Part shown: one piece after another, positions 18,399 to 52,779 of the stretch
Numbering within the stretch: the first letter of the stretch is position 1
How the letters are laid out: every line of letters begins with the position of its first letter
Virus record (IMG/VR): IMGVR_UViG_3300031454_000255
Coordinates: 1,779-65,778 of that record
From: a virus
Strand: one strand, 5' to 3'
DNA: 64,000 nt
Notes under the pieces: generated by a model
Database searches by the model: none
Told to the model about the DNA's origin: nothing
What the model saw: the letters and a program-made list of their open reading frames with translations, nothing else
Program-made: the position numbers and the translations under genes

Positions 18399-18409
18399 TT
18401 GTGGTGTCG

Positions 18410-18575: not shown

Positions 18576-18588
18576 ACAAATTTTTTGT

Positions 18589-18972: not shown

Positions 18973-19010
18973 TTTCGGATTGTAGCTTTAAAGATTTGAG
19001 TTTGAAAAGA

Positions 19011-19205: not shown

Positions 19206-19340
19206 AATATATTCTAAGTATAGAAATAAATCAAATAGATATGATTTTATCTCTCTGTTAGATTGACAACTATATTTTAGATATAGTAAGATATATCTAC
19301 GTTAGAGATAACGAATAAAACAAAAGGACGGAAAACGGAA

Positions 19341-19499
19341 ATGCAGAAAATTAAAATCAACGGCTACACGGTGACAATCTTCAACCACTACAACGGAACG
19401 CAGTTATTTATTAACGATTCAAAAGGCGTTCAAATCTACGCTCATAAAGTTACGGGCGATGCGATGCTGCGAGCTTTGGAAATAATCGGACAAAACTAA
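19341..19499 (+). CDS. Small hypothetical protein, 52 aa (not in ORF track)
   Basis: Manual translation MQKIKINGYTVTIFNHYNGTQLFINDSKGVQIYAHKVTGDAMLRALEIIGQN; purine-rich RBS; same position as 33191..33391 in the twin module. Confidence 0.6.
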   Translation: MQKIKINGYTVTIFNHYNGTQLFINDSKGVQIYAHKVTGDAMLRALEIIGQN

Positions 19500-19505
19500 A
19501 AACGA

Positions 19506-19545
19506 AAAGGTTTAGATAAGTTCGCGCTTACCTAAACCTTTCTTT
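19506..19545 (+). terminator. Intrinsic terminator-like hairpin
   Basis: AAAGGTTTAGATAAG-TTCGCG-CTTACCTAAACCTTT followed by CTTT. Confidence 0.6.
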
Positions 19546-19571
19546 AATCCCTTCGGGAAGGAATCATCAAT

Positions 19572-20087
19572 ATGGACAAGATAACACGAAAGAAATTAGA
19601 AAAGAAACACGGACAAATAAAAATTTGCTTTACCTGCGGAAAACCCAAAGCCCTTTTTGATTTTTATAAATCTTCATATTGGGTAAGCAACAAAGGCAAT
19701 CCGGTTGTTAAATACGCCGTTCACCGAAATTGTAAGATATGTGAACGAAAACAAACAACTTCCAAACGAACCTCGCCCGCAAAAACTCGCCAACCGCGCC
19801 CGATTATGAGTTTTGAAGATACTCAAATCGCAAAGCGCAATAATTTATTAAAACGTAAATACGGCATTACGCTTGACCGATACAACGAATTTTTAGAACG
19901 GCAAAACGGCGGCTGCGCGATTTGCGGCGAACCGCCGACAACTCAAATTTTAGTTGTTGACCATTGCCACAAATCCGGCAAGATTCGCGGTCTGCTCTGT
20001 CATAAACATAATTCGGCAATCGGATTCTTAAACGACAGCCCAGAACTAATCAAAAAAGCAAACGAGTATTTGGGAGAGGCGAAATGA
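19572..20087 (+). CDS. Endonuclease VII-like HNH nuclease
   Basis: LKRKYGITLDRYNEFLERQNGGCAICG...LVVDHCHKSGKIRGLLCHKHNSAIG. Confidence 0.85.
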   Translation: MDKITRKKLEKKHGQIKICFTCGKPKALFDFYKSSYWVSNKGNPVVKYAVHRNCKICERKQTTSKRTSPAKTRQPRPIMSFEDTQIAKRNNLLKRKYGITLDRYNEFLERQNGGCAICGEPPTTQILVVDHCHKSGKIRGLLCHKHNSAIGFLNDSPELIKKANEYLGEAK

Positions 20088-20524
20088 AAATTTGTAGCAA
20101 CTGCCGACTACCAAAACCGCTAAAAATGTTCGTCGTCAAAAGATGCGGTGTTTGGGCTTATATCGAGAGATGTAAGCCCTGCCGCGCCGCCTCGAAACCT
20201 TTCCGCAAGTTCTGGAAACCATTAACGCCGGAACAGCGCGAACGAAATCGAATGGCGAGCCGCGCCAGAAAATTAAATTGCTCTGTGATTATTCCTTTTA
20301 CAAAAAGAGAAATAATTTTTCGTGACGGGTTGAATTGTTATTTATGCGGGAAATTATTGACTGAAAAAACCGCAACTATCGACCACGTTAAGCCGTTATC
20401 GCGCGGCGGTTTTCATTGTCCGAATAACGCAAAAATCGCCTGCAAACCTTGTAATCAAAAGAAAACTAATAAAGAATTATCGGAGTGCTGTGATGAATTT
20501 AATCAAAAAACTAACATTGCTTAA
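20084..20524 (+). CDS. HNH endonuclease
   Basis: IFRDGLNCYLCG...TIDHVKPLSRGGFHCPNNAKIACKPCNQKK. Confidence 0.85.
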   Translation: MKICSNCRLPKPLKMFVVKRCGVWAYIERCKPCRAASKPFRKFWKPLTPEQRERNRMASRARKLNCSVIIPFTKREIIFRDGLNCYLCGKLLTEKTATIDHVKPLSRGGFHCPNNAKIACKPCNQKKTNKELSECCDEFNQKTNIA

Positions 20525-22025
20525 AATTGAAGGTGAATTGGTCAAAACTTGCAATCGCTGTAAAAGACATTTACCATCGCATTTTTTTTCCAAAATAAAC
20601 AATCCTAAAAGAGAGTGCGAGAAAGACGGGCTTGCAATTAGTTGTTTTGATTGTGCAAGACTGCGTTCGGCGAAATGGCGAGAAGAAAAAAAAGGTGCAG
20701 TTGGTTTGGTTGCTTTAACCCAAAAGAAAATTGAACTTGAAAGATATTTAGTTGCCAATCCGCACCTGTTCTGGTGTGTTAAAGGTCAACACGTTTCTGA
20801 AAAAGAAAACGTTACCATAGCAAATCGAAATTCGAGTGGTTTAGGTTCAATTTGTAAAAATTGCAAAAAACAATTTTACAAAATAAATCCTGAGTATTCC
20901 AAAATTTACTACCAAAACAATAAAGCGCAAGTATTGGAAGCAAGCAAAGAATACAGTAAAAACAATCAAGCAAAAATTGCGAAAATGAGAAAGAATTGGG
21001 TTTTGGCAAACCCTGATAAAGTTAGAGCTTCAATAGAAAGAAGCGTTAAAGTTAGAGCGGAAAAAAGAAGAAAAGTAAGTGAAGAATTAAAGTCCATTCG
21101 TATCTTAAAGAAAAAAACAATCAAAGAAAAAACTTGCTCTAAGTGTAATAACATTCTTTCTATTGAAAACTTTCGTAGCAATACAAATATATGTAAAGAT
21201 TGCAAAAAAAACGCTGATTATGAAAGAATAATGAAAAAATTACCCGTTACTGTTGCTGAAGAGAGATGCCAAAAACACACTGAAAAAAAAGCTCGTGACA
21301 AATATATTTTAGCAAACCCTAGTATTAAATGGTGTGAGAAAGGAAAGCATTTTGTGTGTCGAAGTGAATTTTATAGTGCAGCAAAACGTAAAGATGGTTT
21401 AATGACGACTTGTCAGTCTTGTTTGAAAAAATACATCAATCAAAATATTGAAGTAGTTAAAAAACGGCGAAAATCTTACTATGCCCGAAACCGAGATTTG
21501 ATTATTAAACGAAGTTATTTAAATTACAAACAAAACAAATATAAAATATTAGGACGACAAAAAGCATATAATCAGGTAAATAAAGACACTATTCAACAAA
21601 GAAAAAAACATTATTACCAAAATAACTTTGCTAATAATGAGGAATACCGAGCCAAAACGCGGGCATATCGTGAAAAACACGCCCAAAGAATTTCTGTATA
21701 TAAACAACGAGGATTCGCAAAACTTCGCTCCGTTCGGCAAAACATTAAAGGCGAATTCTCGCTCGACCAATGGTTGTTAAAAATTGAGTTTCACGGTTAC
21801 TGTTGTTATCTTTGCGGTAAATCACTCCAGGGTAAAAAGTTTCATCTTGAACATAGAATACCATTAAGCAGAGGCGGAACAAATTTCTTGGCGAATGTTG
21901 CGCCCTCGTGTGTTAGGTGTAACCTAAGCAAAGGGAACAAAACCGAATTTGAATTTCGGGAATGGAAAAAACAAAACCCAAAACTACGCAGTAAAACCGA
22001 ACTTATTTCCGCCTTCCGCAATTAG
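20490..22025 (+). CDS. Large HNH endonuclease with multiple CxxC zinc modules
   Basis: Repeated CxxC modules, an internal repeat (YLVANPHLFWCVKGQHV / YILANPSIKWCEKGKHFV), and C-terminal CYLCG...HLEHRIPLSRGG...PSCVRCNLSKG. Confidence 0.85.
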   Translation: MMNLIKKLTLLKIEGELVKTCNRCKRHLPSHFFSKINNPKRECEKDGLAISCFDCARLRSAKWREEKKGAVGLVALTQKKIELERYLVANPHLFWCVKGQHVSEKENVTIANRNSSGLGSICKNCKKQFYKINPEYSKIYYQNNKAQVLEASKEYSKNNQAKIAKMRKNWVLANPDKVRASIERSVKVRAEKRRKVSEELKSIRILKKKTIKEKTCSKCNNILSIENFRSNTNICKDCKKNADYERIMKKLPVTVAEERCQKHTEKKARDKYILANPSIKWCEKGKHFVCRSEFYSAAKRKDGLMTTCQSCLKKYINQNIEVVKKRRKSYYARNRDLIIKRSYLNYKQNKYKILGRQKAYNQVNKDTIQQRKKHYYQNNFANNEEYRAKTRAYREKHAQRISVYKQRGFAKLRSVRQNIKGEFSLDQWLLKIEFHGYCCYLCGKSLQGKKFHLEHRIPLSRGGTNFLANVAPSCVRCNLSKGNKTEFEFREWKKQNPKLRSKTELISAFRN

Positions 22026-22182
22026 GGCAAGAATCAATTTTCAGCATCTTGTTGACCTTAGACAAGGATTTAATGATTTCACGCCGCAAATCCATCAATT
22101 CAGCGTTAGGCAATGAAGATGAATTTGCGGCAATGTTTACCCTAGCTACTGATTTAATTTCTTCGCTTTGCATTTGAGGCAT
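22003..22182 (-). CDS. Small protein, 59 aa (peptide family copy 2; not in ORF track)
   Basis: Manual translation MPQMQSEEIKSVARVNIAANSSSLPNAELMDLRREIIKSLSKVNKMLKIDSCPNCGRRK; starts 5 nt after the stop of the truncated tape-measure gene. Confidence 0.65.
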   Translation of the reverse strand: MPQMQSEEIKSVARVNIAANSSSLPNAELMDLRREIIKSLSKVNKMLKIDSCPNCGRRK

Positions 22183-22187
22183 AAAAC

Positions 22188-22706
22188 TTAAATACCCGCA
22201 AAAACCGCCGCCGCGCCGACTGCTGCGACACCGGCAACGGCAATCGTTGCGGGATTTGCTAAAGCGAGAAGGTTTGAGCCGACGGCACCGATTGAACCGG
22301 AAAAATCCGTAACTAACGCGCCCGCGATTTTACTTGATGAACCTAAGCCCGTGATTGAGCCGAGAAATGAAGAAATGGCGGCAGATGATTGGGGACTGGC
22401 GACGCCGCTAATTGTTCTGGCGAGTTTTGCCGCTTCATTTTCGGCGACTTTGACGCCTTGCGAAAGATTTTGGGCGTGAGAGATTAAATTGCGGGCGTCG
22501 GTTGCTAATTGTTCAGCGTTTGCCGCGCCGCGCGATTTAGCGGCAACCGCTTCGGCTAGCGACTGAGACGCGACTTTCGAGGCTTCGGCGGCAACCTTTT
22601 TCTGTTCGCTGACGGCAAGCGCGGCGGTCTCTCTGATTTCCTTTTGGGCATCAGAGCCGTTTGCAGAAATTTTGAATAAAAGATTTACCGCGTCAGAAAA
22701 TCCCAA
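22188..22706 (-). pseudogene. Truncated tape-measure gene (N-terminal 172 aa only)
   Basis: MGFSDAVNLLFKISANGS matches the N-terminus of 27685..31542 (MGFSDAASLTFKILGDNS); Ala-rich sequence that ends at the HNH insert. Confidence 0.7.
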
Positions 22707-22798
22707 AAGAAAATGCCTCCCGCTGAAAGTGGAGACACAAAAGGCGCGTCACAAAGGTAAGTTAGATTTATATTAGATTAAAAGGCTGAAAATCGCAA
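22707..22798 (-). promoter_or_regulatory. Leader F: promoter plus weaker hairpin/U-tract
   Basis: TTGCGA-17-TAATAT; TGTCTCC-10-GGAGGCA-TTTTCTTTT directly before the TTG start. Confidence 0.5.
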
Positions 22799-22807
22799 GA
22801 AATATAA

Positions 22808-23383
22808 TTATGGTTTAAATGCTTTCTTTTTTTTTACATTCTCTGGTGTTTCGGATAATGCTTTTTGATTTTGTTTTTCTTCTATGGCTAGTTCTGCAAA
22901 TGTTTTTCTTATGGTAAGTGTCGGCTTATCCAACAAAAAGATTACACTCATTCCAAACGAATTGCAGTCTAAATTGCGCTGAACTTCCGGCAAATGGCAG
23001 GCAAGCTGGCGTGGGCAATACCAATAACCTTTCGAGAGATTCAATGACGGGGAAATCGCATCGGTAAATTCCGCCGATGAATCCCATTTTACTGAATCGT
23101 CGTAACTAAAGGAAATCTCATTAACTTCGTTTAACTTGCTAAAATCAATGTGAATACTTTCAAGGTTTTTGCTAAAAGCTGAATTTGCGATTTTATTTTT
23201 ATCGAGCGAAGCCCAATCAGTAAATAAACTTGCTGAAGGATATAAATTCTTTACCTGCTCAAACGACATTCCTAATTTCAAACCGCGAATCGTCGGCGAA
23301 TCTTTCAAAGTTAAATCGCAAGGTTTTGTTTGACCATAAGAATTAATTGAGAATAATAAAATGAAAAAGGCGAAGTATTTCAT
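22808..23383 (-). CDS. Secreted/periplasmic moron protein
   Basis: Signal peptide MKYFAFFILLFSINSYG|Q; IRGLKLGMSFEQVK motif. Confidence 0.7.
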   Translation of the reverse strand: MKYFAFFILLFSINSYGQTKPCDLTLKDSPTIRGLKLGMSFEQVKNLYPSASLFTDWASLDKNKIANSAFSKNLESIHIDFSKLNEVNEISFSYDDSVKWDSSAEFTDAISPSLNLSKGYWYCPRQLACHLPEVQRNLDCNSFGMSVIFLLDKPTLTIRKTFAELAIEEKQNQKALSETPENVKKKKAFKP

Positions 23384-23485
23384 TCACCTTTTTTATCATT
23401 TAAAGATTGAAATTGAAAATTAAATTTGGGTAAAATCTTTCATTTATACTTGCAAACTATACCATTTTATAGTACAGTTTATTTA

Positions 23486-23836
23486 ATGAATGAGACGCTT
23501 TTACATTTTATCGAAACATCGGCTTTCACGAAAAGAATTGACAAACTGGCGAGCGTTGAAGTTTTGATTGCTTTGCAAAACGATTTGCTGATTGACCCGA
23601 AACGCGGCGCGGTTATTTCAGGCACGAACGGCGCGAGAAAAGCGCGTGTTTCCAATAAACAGCAAAACATCGGTAAAAGCGGTGCGTTTCGTTACATTTA
23701 CATTTATTTGGAAAAAGCCGAAACGATTTATTTGTTAGTGATTTTCGGGAAAAATGAAATGGACAATTTAGACAAAGGCGAACGAAACGATTTAGCTAAA
23801 TTAGTTAAAATTCTAAAAGATAAATACGGAGAATAA
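23486..23836 (+). CDS. RelE/HigB-family toxin
   Basis: FIETSAF...PKRGAVISGTNGARKAR...GKSGAFRYIYIY...IYLLVIFGKNEMDNL; upstream of an HTH antitoxin. Confidence 0.85.
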   Translation: MNETLLHFIETSAFTKRIDKLASVEVLIALQNDLLIDPKRGAVISGTNGARKARVSNKQQNIGKSGAFRYIYIYLEKAETIYLLVIFGKNEMDNLDKGERNDLAKLVKILKDKYGE

Positions 23837-23837
23837 A

Positions 23838-24134
23838 ATGGATAAACAATTATTTGCAGATTTGAAAGAATCGTTAGGCGAAGCGATTGAACACGCGAGC
23901 GGCAAGCGAAACCTAAAAACAACGACTTTGCCGCGCCCGCCGAAAGTTATGACGCGAATGGATATTGCGGTATTGCGAGGCAAAATGAACGCCTCGCAAG
24001 CCGTCTTTGCTCGCTGTTTGAACGTATCGGTAAAAACCGTGCAGGCGTGGGAGCAAGGAAAAAAACCAAACGGCGCGGCGCTGAAATTGCTTTCAATTGT
24101 CGAAAAGAATCCGTCAATCTTGTATGAAAATTAA
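23838..24134 (+). CDS. HigA-type HTH antitoxin
   Basis: LRGKMNASQAVFARCLNVSVKTVQAWEQGKKPNGAALKLL. Confidence 0.85.
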   Translation: MDKQLFADLKESLGEAIEHASGKRNLKTTTLPRPPKVMTRMDIAVLRGKMNASQAVFARCLNVSVKTVQAWEQGKKPNGAALKLLSIVEKNPSILYEN

Positions 24135-24336
24135 CATCATAATCGAAAAAGGAAAAAAGGAATTTTGGGGACGCGTCGAAGGTTATGATTTTTTGCCCGT
24201 TACCGTCGGCAAAAGCATCGCGGAAGTTATTGCGAACTTGAAAATGTTAATTGTCGATTACATTGAACACGAAGGACAAAGCGATAAGCAGTGGAAAGAT
24301 TTTGACCGAGATAAAATAGTATTCTGCCTACATTAA
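24124..24336 (+). CDS. HicB-like short protein
   Basis: IIIEKGKKEFWGRVEG...TVGKSIAEVIANLKMLI resembles the HicB N-domain; no hicA partner seen. Confidence 0.55.
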   Translation: MKINIIIEKGKKEFWGRVEGYDFLPVTVGKSIAEVIANLKMLIVDYIEHEGQSDKQWKDFDRDKIVFCLH

Positions 24337-24585
24337 GATTTACAGACAAGGCTTTTCTAATCTTTCACAAGCACAATCCGCGCATACTATATTTTCAACC
24401 GGCTACAAACTCGCAGCCTCTTTATTTAATTTCGACAAAGGTATTTTCTTAATATGCCAGGTGCTTTCGTGCCGCAGCTTCACGCAAACGCGCACTTCGC
24501 CCGACGGCTGTTTTTCAAGGAAATATCCTTTCAAATTGCATCCAGACTCTTCGCAGGTTTTTGCTTTTCTACTTTCAGCCATAAT

Positions 24586-24841
24586 TTAATCACCAAACTT
24601 CGGTTCTACATCACCACCACTGCCGCCCACGCCCATCATTTGTCCGCTCAAAACTATCGCCAGAGCTTCAAAGTCGTCGATTCTTTTGGCGTTATCGTAA
24701 ATTTGCAATCGAAGCGAACAGGCAATGTCGAAACCTAAGGCGACGCGGTTATTTTTTATGCCGACTAGCTCGCTTGATTTTTGCCCTGAGTTCCGCGCCG
24801 TCAATGCCAGCGCGGCGGCTTGATTGTGGTTTTTCAGGAAA
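24586..24841 (-). CDS. Tail assembly chaperone T-frame (GT extension) 2
   Basis: +1 frame entered at TTT CCT: FLKNHNQAAALALTARNSG...FDIACSLRLQIYDNAKR. Confidence 0.7.
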
Positions 24842-25300
24842 CATCGCCGCCATTAAAGCGGCATTGCCTCCTGCTGAAATCCAGCGATACAGATACCCAA
24901 GGTCATCCGGCAGAATATGGGACGCCGACAATTCATTCGGCTTTGTCGCCTTGCCCATCACGATTTTCGGGTCGTAGCTGAGTGCTAAAACTTTATCGCG
25001 CCGCGCTTCGGCGATTCGGATGTTGCGCTGGTAATCGGTTTCGCTTTGCGGCTTTAAGTCCGTTTCAACAGGGATCGCGGGCGTATAAACGCCGTCCGCC
25101 TGCCAACTCTCCGCCGCTTCGTCAGCAATTGTCATCGGCAAATCGGTATCGCCCCCGGCATCCTCAAACAACGTGCTGACATCGTTTGAGGCGTAGAACT
25201 TAAACACCATTCCCGACGGCGCAGTGATGTCTTCGAGTTTCGGCGCGCCGTTTTGAATGGTTTGGCGATAGCGTTCCGTCGCCGTTAATTGCTTGCTCAT
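24749..25300 (-). CDS. Tail assembly chaperone G 2
   Basis: Canonical position after the tail tube gene; APSGMVFKF, DPKIV, YRWISAGG. Confidence 0.75.
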   Translation of the reverse strand: MSKQLTATERYRQTIQNGAPKLEDITAPSGMVFKFYASNDVSTLFEDAGGDTDLPMTIADEAAESWQADGVYTPAIPVETDLKPQSETDYQRNIRIAEARRDKVLALSYDPKIVMGKATKPNELSASHILPDDLGYLYRWISAGGNAALMAAMFPEKPQSSRRAGIDGAELRAKIKRASRHKK

Positions 25301-25303
25301 AAA

Positions 25304-25903
25304 TTAAATTCCTAAAGGCATTCCCGGGTCGACGTAACCGAGCGTATCGGATTTTACCCGCGTGGCAACGCCGACGCCTTTGAAGTCGAAACTGATTTTG
25401 GCGCGTTTGTTGCGAGCCGTTTCCACATCGAATGATCCGGCGTTGTAGCCTTTATACATATGAAAAACAAGGCATTTGGTCGGGTCATATAAAGTCGGCG
25501 CGATGACGGCGACACCCGTGTAACTGAGAACTCCGGTCCCGATTGTGTAGATCGTGCGCCCTGCAACGATTGTTGGGGTTCCGATGCCGGTAGTTGCCTG
25601 CGCGAGGTTGTCAGGGTCGAGAACCTGCGCTGCCTCGACCTTGATGTTCATCGTTGTTTTGTCAATCGTAAAATTCTGCGCCTCCGGCAGCTCGTCGAAG
25701 TTCTCTTCGGTCGTCGTCTTGCCTAAAGAGGAACTTGCACCCGCATCTGTAAGCCCGACGAGTTTGCGAAGCGGATTCTGAGTCGCATCCGGTTCGCCGA
25801 GCGCGTTTAGAATCATTGTCGTTCCGGGAGCGGGAAGGGCAATGCCGAACCAAACCTTTACCGGTCCTTTTTGAGTTTTTGTGATGTCCAAAGTCGTTCC
25901 CAT
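25304..25903 (-). CDS. Major tail tube protein
   Basis: 199 aa in the canonical position; QKGPVKVWFG...VGLTDAGASSS...FDVETARNKRAKISFDFKG. Confidence 0.75.
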   Translation of the reverse strand: MGTTLDITKTQKGPVKVWFGIALPAPGTTMILNALGEPDATQNPLRKLVGLTDAGASSSLGKTTTEENFDELPEAQNFTIDKTTMNIKVEAAQVLDPDNLAQATTGIGTPTIVAGRTIYTIGTGVLSYTGVAVIAPTLYDPTKCLVFHMYKGYNAGSFDVETARNKRAKISFDFKGVGVATRVKSDTLGYVDPGMPLGI

Positions 25904-25934
25904 AATTTTTAACCGTCCTTATTATTTGACCGAA

Positions 25935-26234
25935 TTATTTAACCAGGTTGTTTAATGCCGTATTTATTGCGCCGCGCCGCTGTGTGTCTTCTTCTGCGGG
26001 CGCGCCGAGTCCGCCGAAAAGCGAGCTTTTAAAGTCCGCTTCGGTAATCACGCCGTGACCGCCGAATTGAGCGTATGCTTGCAGGGCTTGAACGGCGTTT
26101 TCTTCGCCGAACAGCGCGGTTGCGTTATGCAGATTGAAATTGCCGCCGATTTTCTTGACGTAATCGATTTCTTTTGCGGGCACGTCCGCTCCCTCATTCG
26201 CTTTACCGTCTTCGGTGTTTGGTTTGTTTGCCAT
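25935..26234 (-). CDS. Hypothetical protein (tail cluster)
   Basis: GGAG RBS; intact ORF between the terminator-like gene and the tube gene. Confidence 0.6.
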   Translation of the reverse strand: MANKPNTEDGKANEGADVPAKEIDYVKKIGGNFNLHNATALFGEENAVQALQAYAQFGGHGVITEADFKSSLFGGLGAPAEEDTQRRGAINTALNNLVK

Positions 26235-26252
26235 AAAAATAATTCTCCTTAA

Positions 26253-26756
26253 TTAGTTGTCAGAACTTGCGTAAAACCGATAGACGGCTCGCACTTGAAA
26301 GTCTTGAAAAAACAATGATTTCTCGGGATCCTTAAGGATTTCGGGAAATGTAATATTGGGAACCTTAACGCCTTCGTAATAACAATTCGTCTTGTCCGCG
26401 AGCAATGCTTCCGGCGTTATTTCGAGCAGCATGCTTTGTAGGGCTTTAGCGTAACTTTCGGCGTTTTTTATCGTGTCCGCGATATTACCGTTCACAATAA
26501 TTGCCTCAAAATCTATCGTAAAATCGCCATCCGTGATGTCATCGACTTCATCCGAGATACTTTTTCTTTTAATCGAAAGTGACGGAAAATTCGGCAACTC
26601 TTTATTTGCAATTTTGTCGGCGGCGAAATTAAATGGTTTCATCGCGCTGCCGTTTGCCCACACCAGCGCGGCGGCTTGATTAGCGCGGATAAACGCGACG
26701 ATGTTCGCCTCTAAATGCGTCGTGTCGAGCGGGTTATGTTTTGGCTGCCAAGTCAT
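26253..26756 (-). CDS. Tail terminator-like protein
   Basis: Position upstream of the tube gene; FPSLSI...FTIDFEAI...FQVRAVYRF pattern. Confidence 0.6.
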   Translation of the reverse strand: MTWQPKHNPLDTTHLEANIVAFIRANQAAALVWANGSAMKPFNFAADKIANKELPNFPSLSIKRKSISDEVDDITDGDFTIDFEAIIVNGNIADTIKNAESYAKALQSMLLEITPEALLADKTNCYYEGVKVPNITFPEILKDPEKSLFFQDFQVRAVYRFYASSDN

Positions 26757-26760
26757 TTAC

Positions 26761-27285
26761 TTAAAAGTTCGAGCGATAATTCTCTTCCGTCATTACAAAT
26801 GTCGTGTCCGTCCGCACATCGCCTAAAATCTCTTTTTGCATCACGTCGCCGATTCTTTTCAGTTGCCCGTCCGACAAATCAATCAGCGGACGGGCTGGCA
26901 AGTTGCGCGGCGCATACCCGAAATGCTGCGCTTTAGCCTGAGGCGTGTTCGTTCCAAACGCGGCGTCGAGCTTGTTAATGACGGTGACGGTATGTTCACT
27001 TTCCCCGGTTAAAGATTTATAGGTTGCATCGGTTAATCGCTCTAAACTGACGAAACCTAAAAAACCTAATTTGCTAATCTTCCGCGCTTCGTATTTTGGA
27101 GATAACGGCTGCCATCTGCCGCTTTTGCCCGTCGCATTGTCCGACTGGTAATTGTTCTTTTCAATCTCAAAAAACGCTTTCTGTGCGGCACGAAAAGCCT
27201 TTGAAAAGTCGTCTAATCCTTTACGGACATTGCTAAAGTTCCGTATTAGATTTTCTTCACCTTCAACTTGAAAAATAATTTGCAC
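26761..27285 (-). CDS. Tail completion / virion morphogenesis protein (Mu G / P2 S-like)
   Basis: GRWQPLSPKY...FGTNTPQAKAQHFGY..RNLPARPLIDLS; GTG start with AGAGG RBS. Confidence 0.8.
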   Translation of the reverse strand: MQIIFQVEGEENLIRNFSNVRKGLDDFSKAFRAAQKAFFEIEKNNYQSDNATGKSGRWQPLSPKYEARKISKLGFLGFVSLERLTDATYKSLTGESEHTVTVINKLDAAFGTNTPQAKAQHFGYAPRNLPARPLIDLSDGQLKRIGDVMQKEILGDVRTDTTFVMTEENYRSNF

Positions 27286-27299
27286 TAAACTGACCTCTA

Positions 27300-27452
27300 A
27301 AACGAAAAACACCCGCTAAAAATGAACGGTTGTTCAAATCTAGCGGGTGTCGAGTTTCTAAAAAGAAAGTGCAGACCCTTCGTTAAAATTTTTACCTAAA
27401 GACGCGCTTTAAGTTCACTGTTAATTTACCGCAAAAAACAGAAATTAGCAAG
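27300..27452 (-). promoter_or_regulatory. Leader C: promoter, GGGTCTGCAC box, small hairpin, terminator-like hairpin
   Basis: TTGCTA-17-TAAATT; GGGTCTGCAC-TTTCT-TTTT-AGAAA; ACACCCGCTAG...TAGCGGGTGT-TTTTC. Confidence 0.75.
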
Positions 27453-27459
27453 GTAATTT

Positions 27460-46711: not shown

Positions 46712-47091
46712 TGTTTAGGATTCCTCCCCTGTAATCTCAAATCCTTTTTTCTTAAATCTTCCTCTCTGTCTTCACAGCTTTTCAGCCGCCTTTCCGCTCT
46801 TTCAAGTTCGGCGCGGGTCGCGCTGTGCGATGCTATCTCATCGGCAATATCCTTTTTGCAGTCATCATATCTAGAACGCGAGCGGTTTAAGTCTTCTTTC
46901 AATGCTTCCGTTCCGGTTTTTGACCAATAGAAATAAACAATGGCAACAAACAAGCCGGCGACCGTTAAAAACGATAAAAATAACGCGAAATACAATCCGA
47001 CTTCCTGCGCCGTTAAACCGCTTTCAGCGAAAAACAAAAGAAGCGGCGCGAAACTATAGAAAATCAGCTCTGAAAATGTGAGTATATTCAT
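46708..47091 (-). CDS. Membrane protein with coiled-coil tail (holin/antiholin-like)
   Basis: Two hydrophobic segments then a charged coil; ATGA overlap with the receiver gene. Confidence 0.55.
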   Translation of the reverse strand: MNILTFSELIFYSFAPLLLFFAESGLTAQEVGLYFALFLSFLTVAGLFVAIVYFYWSKTGTEALKEDLNRSRSRYDDCKKDIADEIASHSATRAELERAERRLKSCEDREEDLRKKDLRLQGRNPKQ

Positions 47092-47108
47092 TGATTCGCG
47101 CCGCGTTT

Positions 47109-47846
47109 TTACGAAGTAATTACTGCCTGCGTTTTTCGGCAAACACCGCAAAATCTAAAATCCTCTAATGCAGCGACGGGTTTGCCCGGTTTGCGATAAT
47201 GCGTCGGCAAATGATAGATTTTCGATTTTCCGTAACTGACAAATCCGCTTCCCGCGGGATGTAAAGGCGCGGCATCGGTTCGTTCAATACCAATGACGGC
47301 GCGAATTTGCGCCGGCGAGATGTTCGAGCCGTCGTGCGAAAAATCCGATGCGTTTCCGAATGGAATATCCGAATAGCCTTTCGTAAAGAGCAGCATAAAT
47401 ATCTCTCCGGCAAGGGTGAAATATTCGGTCGAGTAATTCGATTTTTCCCACCACGTCTCGGAGTTCGGTTTTCCGTCGTTTAGAAGTCGGACGAATGTGT
47501 CACGCATTAAATCCGTCAAAGGCAGATAGTAATCGACGGCGTGAGCGATTTCGGCGCTGACGGTCGCCTCCGCCATTTCGGGATGGTTAATTAATTTTTC
47601 ATCTAAATAAATCGATGCGGTTGAAGGATAAAACACGCCGAGAATGTATTGCCTGCCTTCAAATAAGCCTTCGTGCGTGTCGGCTTCGCTCCCGATGCGG
47701 CTCTCGATGGCGGCTTTTGAATTCAAATCCTGCCAGCCGAGTTCCGCGCCCTCCGGCAAAGATAATCGCTCAAACGGAAACTTGATTTTCGAGATTGCGG
47801 CGACGACGATTTTTTGTTGTTCGGCACTGCCTTTTATTTTCCACAT
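47109..47846 (-). CDS. Hypothetical protein, zincin-like (AEIAH variant motif)
   Basis: ILGVFYPSTASIYLD...SAEIAHAVD...LAGEIF; C-terminal IYH...CGVC. Confidence 0.45.
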   Translation of the reverse strand: MWKIKGSAEQQKIVVAAISKIKFPFERLSLPEGAELGWQDLNSKAAIESRIGSEADTHEGLFEGRQYILGVFYPSTASIYLDEKLINHPEMAEATVSAEIAHAVDYYLPLTDLMRDTFVRLLNDGKPNSETWWEKSNYSTEYFTLAGEIFMLLFTKGYSDIPFGNASDFSHDGSNISPAQIRAVIGIERTDAAPLHPAGSGFVSYGKSKIYHLPTHYRKPGKPVAALEDFRFCGVCRKTQAVITS

Positions 47847-47894
47847 CTTGTTTTTTCTTTCTAAACTTGCGGCGTTTTGCCGAGATAATTTCTT

Positions 47895-48269
47895 TTAGCG
47901 TTTCCGATAACTTATAAGCCCAAATAAAAAGCTGATTTTCACTCCCTTGCGACTGTCGTAAACTTTCAACAGTTCGGCTTGGGACGCGATAATTTCATCT
48001 TTCTTTTTGATAATTGCGTCCTGTGCCGCGCTTAACTGCTTTTGGTTTTCGATAACAGCATTTAGCGATTTGATAACTGTCTCGCTTGAATCTAAGGCAT
48101 CCAGAGTCTTTGCGAGACGTCTTGAGCAGAGCTCGTCACGGTTGACAGCTTGGATCGTCGGCAAAGCGGGTGCAGAACCGATTTGCGGCATTTGCGCCGT
48201 CGTAACTATTGCTGTCGCGCCGAATAGAATTGTTAAAATCAGCAATTGCCGAATTAGCGTTAATTTCAT
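47895..48269 (-). CDS. Outer-spanin (Rz1)-like exported protein
   Basis: Signal peptide plus coiled coil; overlaps 48136..48552 in another frame. Confidence 0.45.
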   Translation of the reverse strand: MKLTLIRQLLILTILFGATAIVTTAQMPQIGSAPALPTIQAVNRDELCSRRLAKTLDALDSSETVIKSLNAVIENQKQLSAAQDAIIKKKDEIIASQAELLKVYDSRKGVKISFLFGLISYRKR

Positions 48270-48552
48270 TTTGTTTAACCTTTTCCTGAATATCAGTTTT
48301 TTGATTGGTAAGCTCGACAGCTTCGTTTGTCGCTAACGCAATGTTGGCGTTTATGTTCTCGATTTTCTTCGTCTCTTTTTGCGAGCGGCAAGACTCGCAC
48401 TCGTGCATCACAAAACCAAACACCAGCAGAACGATTAAAATAACCAAACCAACGCTTGCCAGAAATGAATTTCTTTCGAGATTCGGACTTTCGCCGGTTA
48501 TCAGGCGAAGAAAGAACTTGACGATTTTTTGAATAAAGAGGAATAAAATCAT
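48136..48552 (-). CDS. Inner-spanin (Rz)-like protein
   Basis: One transmembrane segment, periplasmic coiled coil, C-terminal Cys pair. Confidence 0.5.
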   Translation of the reverse strand: MILFLFIQKIVKFFLRLITGESPNLERNSFLASVGLVILIVLLVFGFVMHECESCRSQKETKKIENINANIALATNEAVELTNQKTDIQEKVKQNEINANSAIADFNNSIRRDSNSYDGANAANRFCTRFADDPSCQP

Positions 48553-48950
48553 ACTGAGTCCAAATCTTTTTCGTACGGCGACGCTGTAGTTTCGGTGGCG
48601 TCGCTTAACAGTTGGTTGAGTGAATCAGTTTTCACTTTTTCTAAATGTTCGCGTCGCAATTTGTTGTTATTTATCACCGTCGGCAAGGTAATTCCAGCCA
48701 TCGCTAAATAGATAAATGCGGCAAACGCGCCCGCGCCGAAAATGTATAAGATAATTACAACGACGGACGCGCCCGCAAATAAGAGAGCTTTGTATAAAAT
48801 CAATTTTGAAACATTCGCGTCGCCGTTTTTGTCTTGAAAGATTTTGTTTTCTTCTTCGATGCCGTCAACGCTCTTGTTTCGCTTTGACGTGATTACATCG
48901 CCCGCGAAAGTGAGGGCGCAAAAAGCGGCGGCGATAATTATAAAAATCAT
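48549..48950 (-). CDS. Multi-pass membrane protein (holin-like)
   Basis: Three hydrophobic segments; lysis cluster. Confidence 0.55.
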   Translation of the reverse strand: MIFIIIAAAFCALTFAGDVITSKRNKSVDGIEEENKIFQDKNGDANVSKLILYKALLFAGASVVVIILYIFGAGAFAAFIYLAMAGITLPTVINNNKLRREHLEKVKTDSLNQLLSDATETTASPYEKDLDSV

Positions 48951-48958
48951 ATTTTTCC

Positions 48959-49273
48959 CTAGACCGACGAAATTAATTTATGTTTGGAGAGCGTTTCGGT
49001 TTTGATAACTTCAATCGGCGTGTCGACGGGAGCGTTGCGGGCTTCACGAACGACATTGACGTTGTATTTTTGTTTCGCAATCATCCAGAGCAAACTGCCG
49101 CAGAAAAACAACGCGCCGACGAGATACTGCACAGATTCGAGACTCGTCAAGGTTTCAGTCTGCTCTGAATTTAACCAGCCGCTATGGACAAGTTTTAAAC
49201 CGACGACGACAAGAAATTTTCTGATTAAATCGGCGGCTAATTGTTTGTAAAAATCCGTATCCTTATTAGTCAT
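48959..49273 (-). CDS. Holin-like protein
   Basis: Two hydrophobic segments; overlaps the endolysin stop codon. Confidence 0.55.
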   Translation of the reverse strand: MTNKDTDFYKQLAADLIRKFLVVVGLKLVHSGWLNSEQTETLTSLESVQYLVGALFFCGSLLWMIAKQKYNVNVVREARNAPVDTPIEVIKTETLSKHKLISSV

Positions 49274-49904
49274 CGAGTTTCTCCAGAGCTTCTGTATAAC
49301 TAGAATTGAGCGGCGAAGGAGCGTGAGCGGCTTTGTTTTCGACTGTATCCGCATTGCTTTGTTCGCCGCCGTTTTCAACTTCCCCGTTAGCGGAGTTATT
49401 AACTGAGTTCGCGCGCGCTTGCGTTGGGGTTGGGGTTGAAAGTGAGTTTGTGTCAGGTGTTAAAAATAATTTGCGTTCGGCTTCACGGCGGCGCGTTAAA
49501 CCTTTAACGACAACCAATTTTCCTTTTACAGTTGCTTTTACCCAATCTAGGAAGTGGTTGCTTGCCGACACGTAATCTTTTTGGTTTAGCTTTCTCAAAA
49601 CCGACGAACCCGAAAAAGCGTGTGCGCCGATATTAAAAATAAGGCTCGTCAAAGCACTTCTTTGGTTATCGTTTATCGGAACTTTAACAAGGGTTTTAAC
49701 GGTATTGCCCGCCGAAGCTAAATCTTTTGTCAAAAAAGCATCGGATTGTTCGGATGTTATTTTTTGTCCTAATTTAAGAGTGCGTTTATCGTCTGCGGTC
49801 AATAAATGTCCACAGCCGACCGTTTCTAAGTTCGCGCTATCAAGATAAACTTTCAGCACTACGCCCTCAAATTGCTTTATTAAATCTAATGTTTGCTTAT
49901 TCAT
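49266..49904 (-). CDS. Endolysin, GH24 (phage lysozyme family)
   Basis: IKQFEG...YLDSANLETVGCGH (E-D-T triad), NQRSALTSLIFNIG, GLTRRREAERKLF. Confidence 0.92.
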   Translation of the reverse strand: MNKQTLDLIKQFEGVVLKVYLDSANLETVGCGHLLTADDKRTLKLGQKITSEQSDAFLTKDLASAGNTVKTLVKVPINDNQRSALTSLIFNIGAHAFSGSSVLRKLNQKDYVSASNHFLDWVKATVKGKLVVVKGLTRRREAERKLFLTPDTNSLSTPTPTQARANSVNNSANGEVENGGEQSNADTVENKAAHAPSPLNSSYTEALEKLDD

Positions 49905-50820
49905 TTTCTTTTTCTACAAACCGCGCTTTATATTGCCGAGAACCAAAAGTTTTAGCTTTTCCGTGCAAACAAGCCGAGATGTTTGAAGCCCAAGCATTTA
50001 ATTCGTTAGCGGCTTCAATGATATTTGTATAAGTTTTTATAATTTCATTACTTTTTGCGTCCAAAACTTCAAAAGGACGCGCAAGCCGTTTTCTTACAAT
50101 TTCAGAGGCTTTTGCTTTGTATTCTAATGATTGCAATACTTTATTAAGTTGCTCTTTCCGGTTTGGCGCATCTCGAAACTTAGATATTCTTTGCTGCTTT
50201 TCTTCTTTAGAAAGTGTTGACCACCATTGCTTTGTTTCTAGGGATTTTCGTTCTTTATAAGCAACTGTATTATGAGATTTTCTGATAGCAATTCCGGCTT
50301 TTGCCCTCGCTTCCGGTGTGTGTAAATATTTCTTTGCCACCGCTCGGCTGGCTTCTTTAATCTTTTCGATATTTGCGGCGCGTCCTTTACGAAGCGATTC
50401 AGTCAGTTTTGTTTTTTCTTCATTATTTGCCCAACGATTTTTTGCCGCAGCCGACATTCTTTTTTTGGTTTCATCTGAAAAACCTAACTGACGGTCGCCG
50501 CCTGATGAGGCGTTATAGCCGTTTTTAGCTAAAGTGTTGTAGGTCAAAATCGCTTCCATTTCTAAAATGTTTAATTCTGCAATTGAATCGGATTCGTATA
50601 ACACTTTCCATTCAAATTCGCGCTGTCCGTATTTACGCAAAGCGCAATGAAAAGGAAATTGCATTCCTTTTTTTGCTGATGCAATATGCCGTTTCTTTCT
50701 GTTTTCCAACAAATATCCGGTTGTGTGAATCTTTCTTGAATAAGTTTGCCCTACATATTGTTTGCCGTTTTTCAAACAAGTTGCGATATAAACAATTCCA
50801 AAAACTTTTATGTAAATCAT
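49897..50820 (-). CDS. GIY-YIG homing endonuclease with NUMOD3- and NUMOD1-like DNA-binding modules
   Basis: GIVY...YVGQT; FSDETKKRMSAA; YTNIIEAANELNAWASNISACLHGK. Confidence 0.88.
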   Translation of the reverse strand: MIYIKVFGIVYIATCLKNGKQYVGQTYSRKIHTTGYLLENRKKRHIASAKKGMQFPFHCALRKYGQREFEWKVLYESDSIAELNILEMEAILTYNTLAKNGYNASSGGDRQLGFSDETKKRMSAAAKNRWANNEEKTKLTESLRKGRAANIEKIKEASRAVAKKYLHTPEARAKAGIAIRKSHNTVAYKERKSLETKQWWSTLSKEEKQQRISKFRDAPNRKEQLNKVLQSLEYKAKASEIVRKRLARPFEVLDAKSNEIIKTYTNIIEAANELNAWASNISACLHGKAKTFGSRQYKARFVEKENE

Positions 50821-51142
50821 AGTAACTACAGTATATTACAGCTACTAAATAAAAGCTATTGAACATAAGCGAAACAAGCGCATCAAATTGGTTTTGTGTA
50901 ATCGGAACTTGAACTTCTTTGTTGATGGCGTTTTCGGCAATTCTTAAATCTTGACGTAAAAGTCTTTCACTCTCGGCTTTTGTGATTTTCCCGTTTAATT
51001 TATACGGTTCGTCTTTTAAAACAACGTGTCCGACACCTATCGTTAAGATTTTTACGGCATCGAGATAGCCGTGCAAAACTTCACCTTCAAATTCAATAAT
51101 TAAATTGATTCCGTTTTCACTTGTTATGTAATTATTTTTCAC
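50633..51142 (-). pseudogene. Truncated GH24 endolysin (homology ends near 50855)
   Basis: IIEFEG...YLDAVKILTIGVGH...QNQFDALVSLMFN, then unrelated residues running into the GIY-YIG gene. Confidence 0.8.
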
Positions 51143-51957
51143 GAAAACACCTCCATTTTATTGAGGCTAAAGGCGTTTTGAAGAAGTTTGGTTTTACCGG
51201 CTAACTGTTGCGTTTTCAAATTGGCTTTTTTAGTCGTCTCAATTTGTTTCGCTTTAGCTTTTTTTAGACGCGCTCTTTTAGCTTGTTTGACGTTTCGTTC
51301 TCTTTCTATGACGGCTAATTTTCTGGCACTTTCACGTTCTTTGACCGCTGCTTCCTTTTCTTTCTGCTGAATTTGTTTGATTTCTAAAAACGCCGGATTA
51401 CGCGATACGTTAAAATCTTCAATAAAAGCCGGTCTTTCTAATCGCTTAGTTACTTCACTCACCAGTGGTTCTGCTTTTTTCGCTATCGATTTTGCAACAT
51501 CACCGGCGGCTATGCTGTTTGAACCGGCAAAGAACGCAAGAGAGGCGATTATTTCCGGGTTTGCCGTTAAATTAAGGGCATTTAAGAAGCAATCGCCATT
51601 AAGGTAGACCCCATCAAGATAGTTAGCGATTTGAGAATTGATTTTTCTTTGAGCAACATTCAAGGTCTTATCGCTGATTTTCGTATTAAAAGAAAGTATG
51701 GTGTCAGAAAGCCATAAATTAACAGCTTCGCGCAAAGTAGGAACGATTAAACGGCAAGCAATATCCCGCCCGCCTGTAGAATAGATTTGGCGACGCCAGC
51801 CGTTAAATTGATTTGATAGATAATCCCACCACGCGACCGAGACGGTCTTTGTTTTTCTTTGAACCGGAAATTTATAAACCAAACCATCTAAATCGTTGAT
51901 AGCTTGTTTTATCGTATCGGCATAAATGTGTTGAAACATATTTTTGACCAAAAACAA
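51139..51957 (-). CDS. Hypothetical protein, first gene of the late operon
   Basis: Intact 272-aa ORF with a basic coiled-coil C-terminus. Confidence 0.6.
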   Translation of the reverse strand: MFLVKNMFQHIYADTIKQAINDLDGLVYKFPVQRKTKTVSVAWWDYLSNQFNGWRRQIYSTGGRDIACRLIVPTLREAVNLWLSDTILSFNTKISDKTLNVAQRKINSQIANYLDGVYLNGDCFLNALNLTANPEIIASLAFFAGSNSIAAGDVAKSIAKKAEPLVSEVTKRLERPAFIEDFNVSRNPAFLEIKQIQQKEKEAAVKERESARKLAVIERERNVKQAKRARLKKAKAKQIETTKKANLKTQQLAGKTKLLQNAFSLNKMEVFS

Positions 51958-52091
51958 AAAGCCCGAATTTTCTCTGGTAAAGAGAAAAAACGAGCTGCAA
52001 AACTTCGCTGGTGGTTTGCGTCTTCCGTTGCCGGACAGCGCGAACCGCTAAATTATTTTTAAGTTTAGTCTACTTTGTGGTTTTTAATCAA
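51950..52091 (-). promoter_or_regulatory. Leader G: candidate late promoter plus terminator-like hairpin
   Basis: TTGATT-18-TAAACT; GCTCGTTTTTTCTCT-TTACC-AGAGAAAATTCGGGC-TTTTTGTTTT. Confidence 0.55.
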
Positions 52092-52271
52092 GTTATTTGT
52101 TTGCCGAAAGTGAGTGGTTTTTTTGCAAGTCGGGCATTCGACTTGGAATTGACGGATAAGGACGCGGCAAAGTCCGCCGGACGGAGTGGCAAAATAAAAC
52201 TCGCCGCCTCTGGTTTGTCCGATTTCAGTTTCGCAATTTTTGCAAAGAAAAGGATTAAAACCTGAGTCCAT
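52065..52271 (-). CDS. Zinc-finger protein (Mu Com-like C2-C2)
   Basis: FLCKNCETEIG...FQVECPTCKKTT, immediately upstream of the late operon. Confidence 0.6.
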   Translation of the reverse strand: MDSGFNPFLCKNCETEIGQTRGGEFYFATPSGGLCRVLIRQFQVECPTCKKTTHFRQTNNLIKNHKVD

Positions 52272-52309
52272 AATTTAAATATTATCAAGGGCGGCGTTGT
52301 TAATAAGTA

Positions 52310-52531
52310 TCAAATTCCTTTCTCGTAAATGTGAGCGATTGAATCAATGTCATTTTTAGAAAACTCTGTGCAATCGTCGCAAACACCTAATAACTCATTG
52401 ACATCGCCGACGAGATAGATTTTCCCGTTTTTCAAGCAAAGAATATCGCCTGTTTTTATTTCATTGTGCTTGTTGTATTTTTTGAAAGTAAAACTTTTAA
52501 GAAAATTTTCCATTTGCTTTCTCCTTTTCAA
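52310..52531 (-). CDS. Hypothetical protein
   Basis: GGAG RBS near MENFLK. Confidence 0.55.
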   Translation of the reverse strand: MKRRKQMENFLKSFTFKKYNKHNEIKTGDILCLKNGKIYLVGDVNELLGVCDDCTEFSKNDIDSIAHIYEKGI

Positions 52532-52554
52532 ATTTCAGTTATTTGAATTTTATT

Positions 52555-52779
52555 TCAGTTTGTTGGGATGTGCTTTTCGTTGATACGGTCGGCAATCCAT
52601 TCGAGCGCGTGAGGGACGCAAAAACCGTGTTCCTCACATTGCGGAATCGCTTCTAAAACTCGTTGTCGTTCCGCAAGTATTTTGTCTGTAACCCCCAACG
52701 CTTCGTGCAACCGTGCGTTTTCTATTATAAGTTCCGCGATAACTTTCGAGTTATCGGATTTGATTGTTATTTCGTTCAT
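52555..52779 (-). CDS. Hypothetical protein
   Basis: Intact ORF in the early operon. Confidence 0.55.
   Translation of the reverse strand: MNEITIKSDNSKVIAELIIENARLHEALGVTDKILAERQRVLEAIPQCEEHGFCVPHALEWIADRINEKHIPTN

What the first reader, a model, noticed from the sequence alone, without database searches (positions are those of the whole stretch)
49266..51142. Endolysin broken at its conserved FN motif by a GIY-YIG gene, with a diverged full endolysin right behind
The upstream copy keeps the catalytic E-D-T region but stops matching at DALVSLMFN. The GIY-YIG gene starts about 35 nt later, after a short imperfect hairpin (AGTAGCTGTA...TGTAGTTACT), and its stop overlaps the start of a complete lysozyme. 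The second copy starts from its own Met1, so this is gene replacement rather than an intron.
Basis: partly seen in the sequence, partly recalled or inferred. Interest (0 to 1): 0.65.

Follow-up and report, generated by a model that had tools for sequence, protein, structure and literature searches.

The report
Nuclease-linked endolysin replacement with leftover stub
A phage carries the dead front half of its old cell-wall-cutting (lysozyme) gene, then a selfish DNA-cutting enzyme gene, then a complete foreign lysozyme gene; this looks like the scar of a nuclease-driven gene swap, a known kind of event caught in an unusually readable form.

Summary
On the minus strand lie three features.
- **Stub (51142..50858):** a GH24 lysozyme fragment of codons 1-95. 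Every relative stops matching exactly after the FN motif.
- **Nuclease (50820..49897):** an intact free-standing GIY-YIG/NUMOD homing endonuclease gene, 37 nt after the stub.
- **Full lysozyme (49904..49266):** a complete gene only 44% identical to the stub. Its ATG overlaps the nuclease stop by 8 nt.

No intron RNA, second exon or C-terminal remnant exists. The full copy matches its own lineage evenly across the FN site. The spacer hairpin is no better than chance.

**Best reading (about 0.6):** the scar of intronless homing with one-sided, illegitimate break repair. The nuclease and its linked lysozyme allele were copied in, and the resident 5' half was stranded.

**Support:** a 41%-identical nuclease relative also starts with a genuine lysozyme stub, but of 20 codons. 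That shows a family habit and a variable left junction.

**Not shown:** that FN is the cleavage site.

The parts
51139..51957 (-). Upstream late gene (272 aa, no family match). Its stop overlaps the stub's GTG start (GTGA).
   Evidence: No relatives in IMG/VR. The overlap and a GGAGG ribosome-binding site just upstream place the stub's start in native context.
50858..51142 (-). Stub: codons 1-95 of the resident GH24 lysozyme, ending at SLMFN, with the catalytic E19/D28/T34 region intact.
   Evidence: Pfam PF00959 positions 2-77/125, E 2e-20. PHROG 7 endolysin. All relatives' matches end at 50858. Closest intact relatives are 74%, 68% and 66% identical and 331-367 aa long.
50633..50857 (-). Unrelated read-through tail of the stub ORF (74 codons). 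It overlaps the spacer and the first 62 codons of the nuclease gene in another frame.
   Evidence: no similarity to any lysozyme.
50821..50857 (-). 37-nt AT-rich spacer (27% GC) with an 11-bp imperfect hairpin ending just before the nuclease ATG. No Shine-Dalgarno sequence.
   Evidence: The fold is not better than shuffles. The sequence is unique in the window.
49897..50820 (-). Free-standing GIY-YIG homing endonuclease gene (307 aa): N-terminal catalytic domain, helical basic linker, C-terminal NUMOD/helix-turn-helix module.
   Evidence: Pfam SegE_GIY-YIG 26.7 bits, over the cut-off of 25; I-HmuI NUMOD-like and NUMOD1 below cut-off. PHROG 7168 homing endonuclease matches over residues 8-301, E 7e-18. 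The model's best PDB matches are the I-TevI catalytic domain (1mk0, target TM 0.77) and I-HmuI. Y11, Y22, R41, H45, E87 and N103 are invariant in 14 homologues.
49266..49904 (-). Complete, diverged GH24 lysozyme (212 aa): catalytic domain about 1-150 plus a low-complexity tail. Its ATG overlaps the nuclease stop by 8 nt.
   Evidence: Pfam PF00959 positions 1-125/125, E 6e-38. 44% identical to the stub. Nearest relative is P0013, 64%. Evenly similar to P0013 across FN.
48959..49273 (-). Next lysis-cassette gene: small membrane protein (holin-like). Its ATG overlaps the lysozyme stop (ATGACTAA).
   Evidence: Weak Pfam Phage_holin_10 hit below cut-off. No homologues in the 129 lysozyme-bearing loci searched.

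Best explanation
This is the scar of a homing-endonuclease-driven replacement of the phage's endolysin.

A free-standing GIY-YIG endonuclease gene travels directly upstream of its own lysozyme allele. In a mixed infection or recombination with a naive phage, the resident lysozyme gene was broken. The downstream end was repaired by copying the donor's lysozyme and nuclease gene. That left codons 1-95 of the resident gene as a stub.

The stub is dead. The downstream copy is the working endolysin of the lysis cassette.

**Shown:** the anatomy, the absence of an intron, the foreign origin of the whole downstream catalytic domain, an intact nuclease, and a second stub-plus-nuclease case in the same nuclease family.

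**Inferred:** that this nuclease made the break, that repair was one-sided, and which flank is resident.
For: - **Exact break:** the break falls at 50858 and nothing of the C-terminal half is left.
- **Native context of the stub:** its GTG start overlaps the stop of the upstream gene behind a GGAGG site.
- **Tight packing of the incoming pair:** the nuclease stop and the downstream lysozyme start overlap by 8 nt.
- **Different lineages:** the stub's nearest relatives are 331-367-aa long forms at 66-74% identity. The full copy's nearest are about 150-aa short forms, the best at 64%.
- **The full copy's C-half is not the stub's missing half.** Against P0133, a hybrid of the stub and the full copy's C-half scores 0.74 (N-half) and 0.54 (C-half). 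Real protein pairs with N-half identity 0.7-0.8 have C-half identity 0.65-0.89 (5th-95th percentile, n=121).
- **Nuclease looks active:** all GIY-YIG catalytic residues are present and the fold is I-TevI-like.
- **Second case in the family:** relative P0004 (41% identical) begins with genuine lysozyme residues 1-20. These are 95% identical to the start of an intact lysozyme in L304, and the nuclease domain follows directly.
- **Plausible immunity of the linked allele:** the eight codons before the break differ at 11 of 24 nt between stub and linked allele. The 33 nt before that are 29-31 of 33 identical among the stub's lineage.
- **Published mechanism:** intronless homing by T4 seg genes, and one-sided homing with illegitimate repair at microhomologies after resection, are documented (PMC2988022).
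- **Nuclease-rich record:** it carries seven HNH genes besides this GIY-YIG gene and other duplicated late genes.
Against: - No close relative of this phage, with or without the nuclease gene, was found. There is therefore no empty-site comparison and no donor.
- The two stub cases break at different codons (20 and 95). FN may be a resection endpoint rather than the target.
- The flanking genes have no homologues in any fetched lysozyme locus, and base composition is too noisy. The right-hand junction and the resident side are unresolved.
- The nuclease gene has no Shine-Dalgarno sequence and is overrun by the stub's reading frame, so its expression is uncertain.
- Cleavage specificity is untested.
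- The stub has no internal stops. That fits a recent event but would also fit retention for some use.
Confidence: 0.6

Rival explanations
1. Ordinary module exchange. Two phages recombined illegitimately inside the lysis region, and the nuclease gene merely sits at the boundary as a passenger. It did not make the break.
For: Nuclease genes often lie at boundaries of exchanged blocks (PMC10448857). The break positions differ between the two family members. No cleavage data exist.
Against: Two independent members of one small nuclease family (21 representatives at E < 1e-30) each sit directly behind a lysozyme 5' stub. Yet 0 of 129 lysozyme-bearing loci (79, 50) and 0 of 221 loci with distant GIY-YIG relatives show any nuclease-lysozyme adjacency.
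Confidence: 0.2
2. The phage already had two tandem, diverged lysozyme genes. The nuclease gene inserted into the first one and deleted its 3' half.
For: It would give the same final map. Phages sometimes carry two lysis enzymes.
Against: None of the 79 loci examined for lysozyme copy number holds two GH24 genes or a fragment plus a full gene. The nuclease stop overlaps the second gene's start, which suggests the two arrived as a unit.
Confidence: 0.08
3. Replacement-terminus element, as in fungal mitochondrial mobile endonuclease ORFs. The nuclease brought only a recoded N-terminal half, fused at FN to the resident C-terminal half.
For: It would explain a break exactly at a conserved motif. 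Another window of this scan was read that way (e1-5653656). GH24 N- and C-half identities correlate weakly overall (r 0.46), so mosaics do exist.
Against: The full copy is evenly similar to P0013 across the FN position. It carries the four-residue insertion of that lineage, which the stub's relatives lack. The hybrid fails the N-half versus C-half identity test against P0133.
Confidence: 0.07
4. A group I intron or other splicing joins the stub to downstream coding sequence.
For: GIY-YIG enzymes of this type are often intron-encoded. The best phage hit is annotated as intron-associated.
Against: No Rfam match at E <= 1. Only 37 non-coding nt are available. No exon 2 is present, and the downstream gene is complete from Met1.
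Confidence: 0.02
5. Assembly chimera of two phage variants.
For: The source is a metagenome.
Against: The stub ORF and the nuclease ORF are identical on contigs of 171,936, 144,227 and 17,068 nt from different assembly sources. The junctions lie in unique sequence.
Confidence: 0.02

Closest known systems
Intronless homing by free-standing GIY-YIG endonucleases of phage T4 (SegF at gene 56, SegG at gene 32, SegE; review PMC2988022)
   Same: A GIY-YIG enzyme gene sits outside any intron, next to an essential or conserved gene. The linked allele is expected to resist cleavage. Spread is by break repair that co-converts flanking DNA.
   Different: In T4 crosses both flanks are homologous and the replacement is clean. 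Here a 95-codon stub of the old gene remains, and the incoming allele is only 44% identical. Cleavage was not tested here.
One-sided homing with illegitimate double-strand-break repair (td intron/I-TevI model; cited as refs 4 and 5 in PMC2988022)
   Same: Homology on one side only. Junctions form at microhomologies after resection. It was proposed as the route by which these elements invade new sites. It predicts a stranded partial copy of the target.
   Different: That is a laboratory result with an intron. This is a natural, intron-free case carrying a whole replacement gene.
Mobile endonuclease ORFs of fungal mitochondria that create hybrid genes (Allomyces atp6 type). From my own knowledge and scan note e1-5653656; not read here.
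   Same: The nuclease gene arrives with a substitute for the gene part it displaces, and the old part stays as a stub.
   Different: There only a terminus is replaced and fused in frame. Here the whole gene from Met1 is supplied, and the chimera test at FN was negative.
Nuclease genes at boundaries of genetic exchange, "HEG islands" (Barth, Dunham and Seed 2023, PMC10448857)
   Same: The phage is nuclease-rich, and the nucleases lie beside or within essential late genes and at recombination boundaries.
   Different: My term search of that paper found split genes rescued by splicing and large exchanged blocks, and no stub-plus-full-copy scars. No lysin case appeared in that search.
Aeromonas phage Aeh1 mobE insertion that splits nrdA into two genes (from my own knowledge; mobE of Aeh1 is named in PMC2988022)
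   Same: A free-standing nuclease gene lies inside a conserved phage gene without an intron.
   Different: There both pieces are kept and work together. Here the second piece is absent and a full foreign gene substitutes.

Membership tests
GIY-YIG homing endonucleases (I-TevI / Seg type) | GIY-YIG catalytic domain with the conserved Tyr, Tyr, Arg, His, Glu and Asn residues | tested here: met
   PF19835 scores 26.7 bits against a cut-off of 25. Y11, Y22, R41, H45, E87 and N103 are invariant in 14 homologues. The best PDB fold match is the I-TevI catalytic domain 1mk0 (target TM 0.77, probability 1.0).
GIY-YIG homing endonucleases (I-TevI / Seg type) | Separate C-terminal DNA-binding modules (NUMOD repeats, helix-turn-helix) joined by a linker | tested here: met
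   PF22083 (24.3 bits) and PF07453 (16.8 bits) hit residues 249-291, both below cut-off. PHROG 7168 aligns residues 8-301 (E 7e-18). The model shows a confident C-terminal strand-and-helix module (pLDDT about 90), and the fourth-ranked fold match is I-HmuI.
GIY-YIG homing endonucleases (I-TevI / Seg type) | Site-specific cleavage of alleles that lack the nuclease gene, and resistance of the linked allele | not testable with these tools
   This needs an enzyme assay. Only the sequence difference at the candidate site is known: 11 of 24 nt.
GIY-YIG homing endonucleases (I-TevI / Seg type) | Sporadic presence or absence among otherwise similar genomes | tested here: inconclusive
   None of the 129 lysozyme-bearing loci carries the gene. 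None of them is a close relative of this phage either.
Intron-encoded homing endonuclease in a group I intron | Ribozyme core around the ORF, and a downstream exon that completes the interrupted gene | tested here: not met
   No Rfam match at E <= 1 in 48000-52500. The spacer is 37 nt. No C-terminal half of the stub's allele exists.
GH24 phage lysozyme (downstream copy) | Full Phage_lysozyme domain with the catalytic Glu-Asp-Thr | tested here: met
   PF00959 positions 1-125/125, E 6e-38. E12, D21 and T27 align with the invariant columns.
Replacement-terminus mobile ORF (fungal mitochondrial type) | The incoming gene part is fused in frame to the resident remainder at the insertion point | tested here: not met
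   The full copy starts at its own Met1 and is evenly similar to P0013 across FN. The hybrid test against P0133 falls below the 5th percentile.

The most novel reading that the evidence does not exclude
This small GIY-YIG family is a dedicated lysozyme-gene hunter. It spreads as a natural cleave-and-rescue cassette: it destroys the resident endolysin and supplies its own resistant one. The stranded 5' stub then serves as the upstream homology arm, or as the translation start (as the in-frame stub of P0004 suggests). That would make later homing into related phages efficient.
Probability: 0.3. Interest if true: 0.6.

Novelty: new variant of a known kind. Interest (0 to 1): 0.4.

Why it matters
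- Targets of free-standing homing endonucleases are hard to find, because the cut site lies away from the nuclease gene. A stranded stub names the target gene and bounds the cut site (at or downstream of codon 95), so it gives a directly testable substrate.
- It is also a natural example of how such elements could enter a site with homology on one side only. That route has been proposed from laboratory crosses.
- It shows how endolysin alleles as far apart as 44% identity can be swapped between phages.
- With the other broken-and-replaced late genes in the same record, it suggests that nuclease-driven replacement can be a major source of mosaicism in some temperate phages.

Tried and rejected
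- **Intron:** an Rfam scan at E <= 1 found nothing.
- **Hairpin as a regulatory element:** it folds no better than shuffled sequence, and the spacer is unique in the window.
- **Chimera at FN:** rejected by sliding identity and by the N-half versus C-half test.
- **Membrane gene after the full copy as the severed C-terminal tail of the stub's long-form lineage:** no similarity was detected.
- **Base composition to place the junctions:** a low-GC trough spans about 49.6-52.7 kb, well beyond the cassette. GC3 is too noisy.
- **Synteny with L004, L005 and the other lysozyme loci:** no shared flanking genes.
- **Close relatives of the nuclease or the phage:** none in phage GenBank records, IMG/VR, GTDB genomes or JGI metagenomes.
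- **Lysozymes next to 221 distant GIY-YIG loci:** none.
- **L326:** it looked like a second stub-plus-nuclease case but is an ordinary intact lysozyme.
- **Sequence search of the PDB:** nothing with the protein or with the profile.
- **Literature:** searches for a published phage stub-plus-nuclease-plus-full-copy endolysin found none.

Full report
**Anatomy**

The window is most of a 66,453-nt IMG/VR record classed as a provirus. In the region of the finding all genes read on the minus strand.

- A 272-aa late gene (51957..51139) ends in GTGA. The GTG of that sequence starts a lysozyme reading frame behind a GGAGG site.
- That frame matches Pfam Phage_lysozyme only over profile positions 2-77 of 125 (E 2e-20).
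- It keeps the catalytic Glu19, Asp28 and Thr34.
- It loses all similarity after Asn95 of the SLMFN motif.
- When nine full-length relatives are run against 47000-52000 by tblastn, every match to this copy ends at base 50858.
- The frame stays open for 74 more unrelated codons, to 50633.

A 924-nt gene for a GIY-YIG enzyme (50820..49897) starts 37 nt after the break. Its last codons overlap by 8 nt the ATG of a complete 212-aa lysozyme (49904..49266). That lysozyme covers the whole Pfam profile (E 6e-38). Its stop in turn overlaps the ATG of a small membrane protein, which opens the rest of the lysis cassette.

The two lysozyme copies are 44% identical over 86 residues. The record holds no other lysozyme-like sequence, and in particular no C-terminal half for the first copy.

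**Check of the observation**

- The spacer is 37 nt, not about 35.
- The imperfect hairpin in it is not more stable than shuffled sequence. The z-scores are -0.2 for 111 nt and -0.6 for 49 nt.

The stub ORF and the nuclease ORF occur letter for letter on contigs of 171,936, 144,227 and 17,068 nt from different assembly sources. This argues against a chimeric assembly.

**The nuclease**

- The protein passes the Pfam cut-off for SegE_GIY-YIG. It has sub-threshold NUMOD hits near its C-terminus.
- It aligns end to end with PHROG homing-endonuclease families.
- Tyr11, Tyr22, Arg41, His45, Glu87 and Asn103 are invariant in 14 homologues.
- An AlphaFold model (mean pLDDT 74) finds the I-TevI catalytic domain as its best PDB match (1mk0, target TM 0.77). 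I-HmuI ranks fourth.

The gene therefore looks intact. Stop codons lie just upstream in its frame, so the ATG at 50820 is the start. There is no Shine-Dalgarno sequence, and the stub's frame runs across the start. Weak or controlled translation is common for such genes in T4 (PMC2988022).

It is the only GIY-YIG gene in a record that also holds seven HNH nuclease genes.

**Not an intron, and not a chimera at FN**

- No Rfam family matches 48000-52500 at E <= 1.
- Only 37 non-coding nt are available.
- There is no second exon.

I also tested the idea that the nuclease brought only a new N-terminal half, fused at FN to the resident C-terminal half. Another window of this scan was read that way (e1-5653656). 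Three results speak against it.

- The downstream copy is evenly similar to its nearest relative P0013 across the FN position. Identity is 65, 70 and 80% in 20-residue windows starting at residues 71, 81 and 91.
- It carries a four-residue insertion of that lineage, which the stub's relatives lack.
- A hybrid of the stub and the downstream C-half scores 0.74 (N-half) and 0.54 (C-half) against P0133. Real protein pairs with N-half identity 0.7-0.8 have C-half identity 0.65-0.89 (5th-95th percentile, n=121).

The whole catalytic domain of the downstream copy is therefore foreign to the stub's lineage.

**Which part is old and which is new**

The stub's start is interlocked with the upstream gene. 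The nuclease gene is interlocked with the downstream lysozyme.

- The stub's nearest intact relatives are 74, 68 and 66% identical. They are 331-367-aa long forms with a linker and a membrane segment after the enzyme domain.
- The nearest relatives of the downstream catalytic domain are mostly about 150-aa short forms, the best at 64%.

The downstream copy nevertheless carries an LFLTPD linker tail like the long forms. This would fit a right-hand crossover in the conserved GLTRRR...LF region. I cannot show it, for three reasons. That motif is shared widely. Composition is uninformative. The flanking genes have no homologues in any of the 129 lysozyme-bearing loci fetched.

**Comparative evidence**

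- The arrangement is rare. None of the 79 IMG/VR loci examined for lysozyme copy number has two lysozyme pieces, and none of the 129 lysozyme-bearing loci holds a gene of this nuclease family. None of the 221 loci holding distant GIY-YIG relatives has a lysozyme nearby.
- Full-length relatives of the nuclease are few: 21 representatives at E < 1e-30 among 1.8 billion proteins.
- One of them, P0004 (41% identical), begins with 20 residues that are a genuine lysozyme start. They are 95% identical to the first 19 residues of an intact lysozyme in L304 and 80% identical to those in over twenty other phage contigs. The GIY-YIG domain follows with almost no spacer.

So a second member of this family also sits directly behind a lysozyme 5' stub. 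Its stub ends at a different codon (after FEGLRL), and its junction lies at a different point of the nuclease gene. That supports a family habit of invading lysozyme genes. It also argues that the left junction is irregular rather than a fixed insertion site.

**Mechanism**

The T4 literature describes the following (PMC2988022).

- Free-standing GIY-YIG enzymes cut a gene in phages that lack them.
- They are inherited by break repair that co-converts flanking DNA. This is called intronless homing.
- When only one side has homology, repair is illegitimate, with junctions at microhomologies after extensive resection. This was proposed as the way such elements reach new sites.

The map here is what that predicts.

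1. The break falls in the resident lysozyme.
2. The downstream end is repaired from a donor that carries nuclease gene plus lysozyme.
3. The upstream end is joined without homology.
4. The resident 5' part is stranded as a stub.

Under this model the cut site lies at or 3' of codon 95.

The FN region is a reasonable candidate for the recognition site. The 33 nt before it are 29-31 of 33 identical among the stub, L004 and L005, although these proteins are only 58-68% identical. The linked allele differs at 11 of the last 24 nt. This is inference, not a demonstration. I put the full model at about 0.6, and FN as the actual cut site at roughly one in three.

**Limits**

- No close relative of this phage, of the nuclease or of either lysozyme exists in the collections I could scan.
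The neighbourhoods of the four or more closest nuclease relatives remain unread. That is the cheapest decisive computation.

**Comparison with what is known, and novelty**

The nuclease is a new, small branch of a well-known family. The process matches known homing biology. The Barth, Dunham and Seed paper on nuclease-bounded exchange (PMC10448857) covers the general theme, but my term search of it found no stub-plus-full-copy scars.

I found no published phage endolysin case of this architecture. The scan itself has noted similar loci elsewhere in this genome (e1-5346326) and in another phage (e1-5653656).

I rate it a new variant of a known kind, of moderate interest.

Noticed in passing
P0004 (protein from an ENA contig of 4,953 nt); intact counterpart at L304:4001-4520: A 41%-identical relative of the nuclease is called as one ORF that starts with residues 1-20 of a real GH24 lysozyme and runs straight into the GIY-YIG domain. 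The nuclease may borrow the lysozyme's start codon there.
   Followed up: partly
L004:4986-6098, L005:4218-5189 and proteins P0133-P0138: The stub's lineage of GH24 endolysins is 284-367 aa long. It has a low-complexity linker and a hydrophobic membrane-type segment at the C-terminal end. Known signal-anchor-release endolysins carry the anchor at the N-terminus instead.
   Followed up: no
window 13998-32225 and 6197-22022: A self-comparison of ORFs shows two full tape-measure-size genes (27688-31545 and 13998-17720, 28% identical) and repeated chaperone-like ORFs. It also shows related HNH ORFs on the plus strand (6197-7015, 20012-20521 and 20361-22022). This agrees with the scan's earlier notes on this genome.
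   Followed up: partly
whole record G000 (window plus flanks): Eight nuclease genes lie in 66 kb: four HNH_3, three HNH and one GIY-YIG. That is an unusually high load for a temperate-type phage.
   Followed up: partly
window about 49600-52700: A low-GC trough (34-41% against a window mean of 45%) extends from the downstream lysozyme's catalytic domain through the nuclease gene, the stub and the 272-aa gene, into the small ORFs beyond.
   Followed up: partly
proteins P0199, P0200, P0204: These longer relatives of the nuclease (384-434 aa) match the profile in two stretches. They appear to carry a second copy of the C-terminal DNA-binding module.
   Followed up: no
window 49266-49378: Two reading frames are open over the last 113 nt of the downstream lysozyme: its low-complexity tail, and the upstream extension of the following membrane-protein ORF. 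Whether the two were once one long-form gene could not be shown.
   Followed up: partly
PHROG families phrog_10457 and phrog_7910: Two phage "endolysin" families with profiles of only 95-96 positions match residues 50-148 of the full lysozyme. Short annotated proteins that cover only the rear two-thirds of GH24 therefore exist in phage genomes. They might be further split or truncated lysozymes.
   Followed up: no
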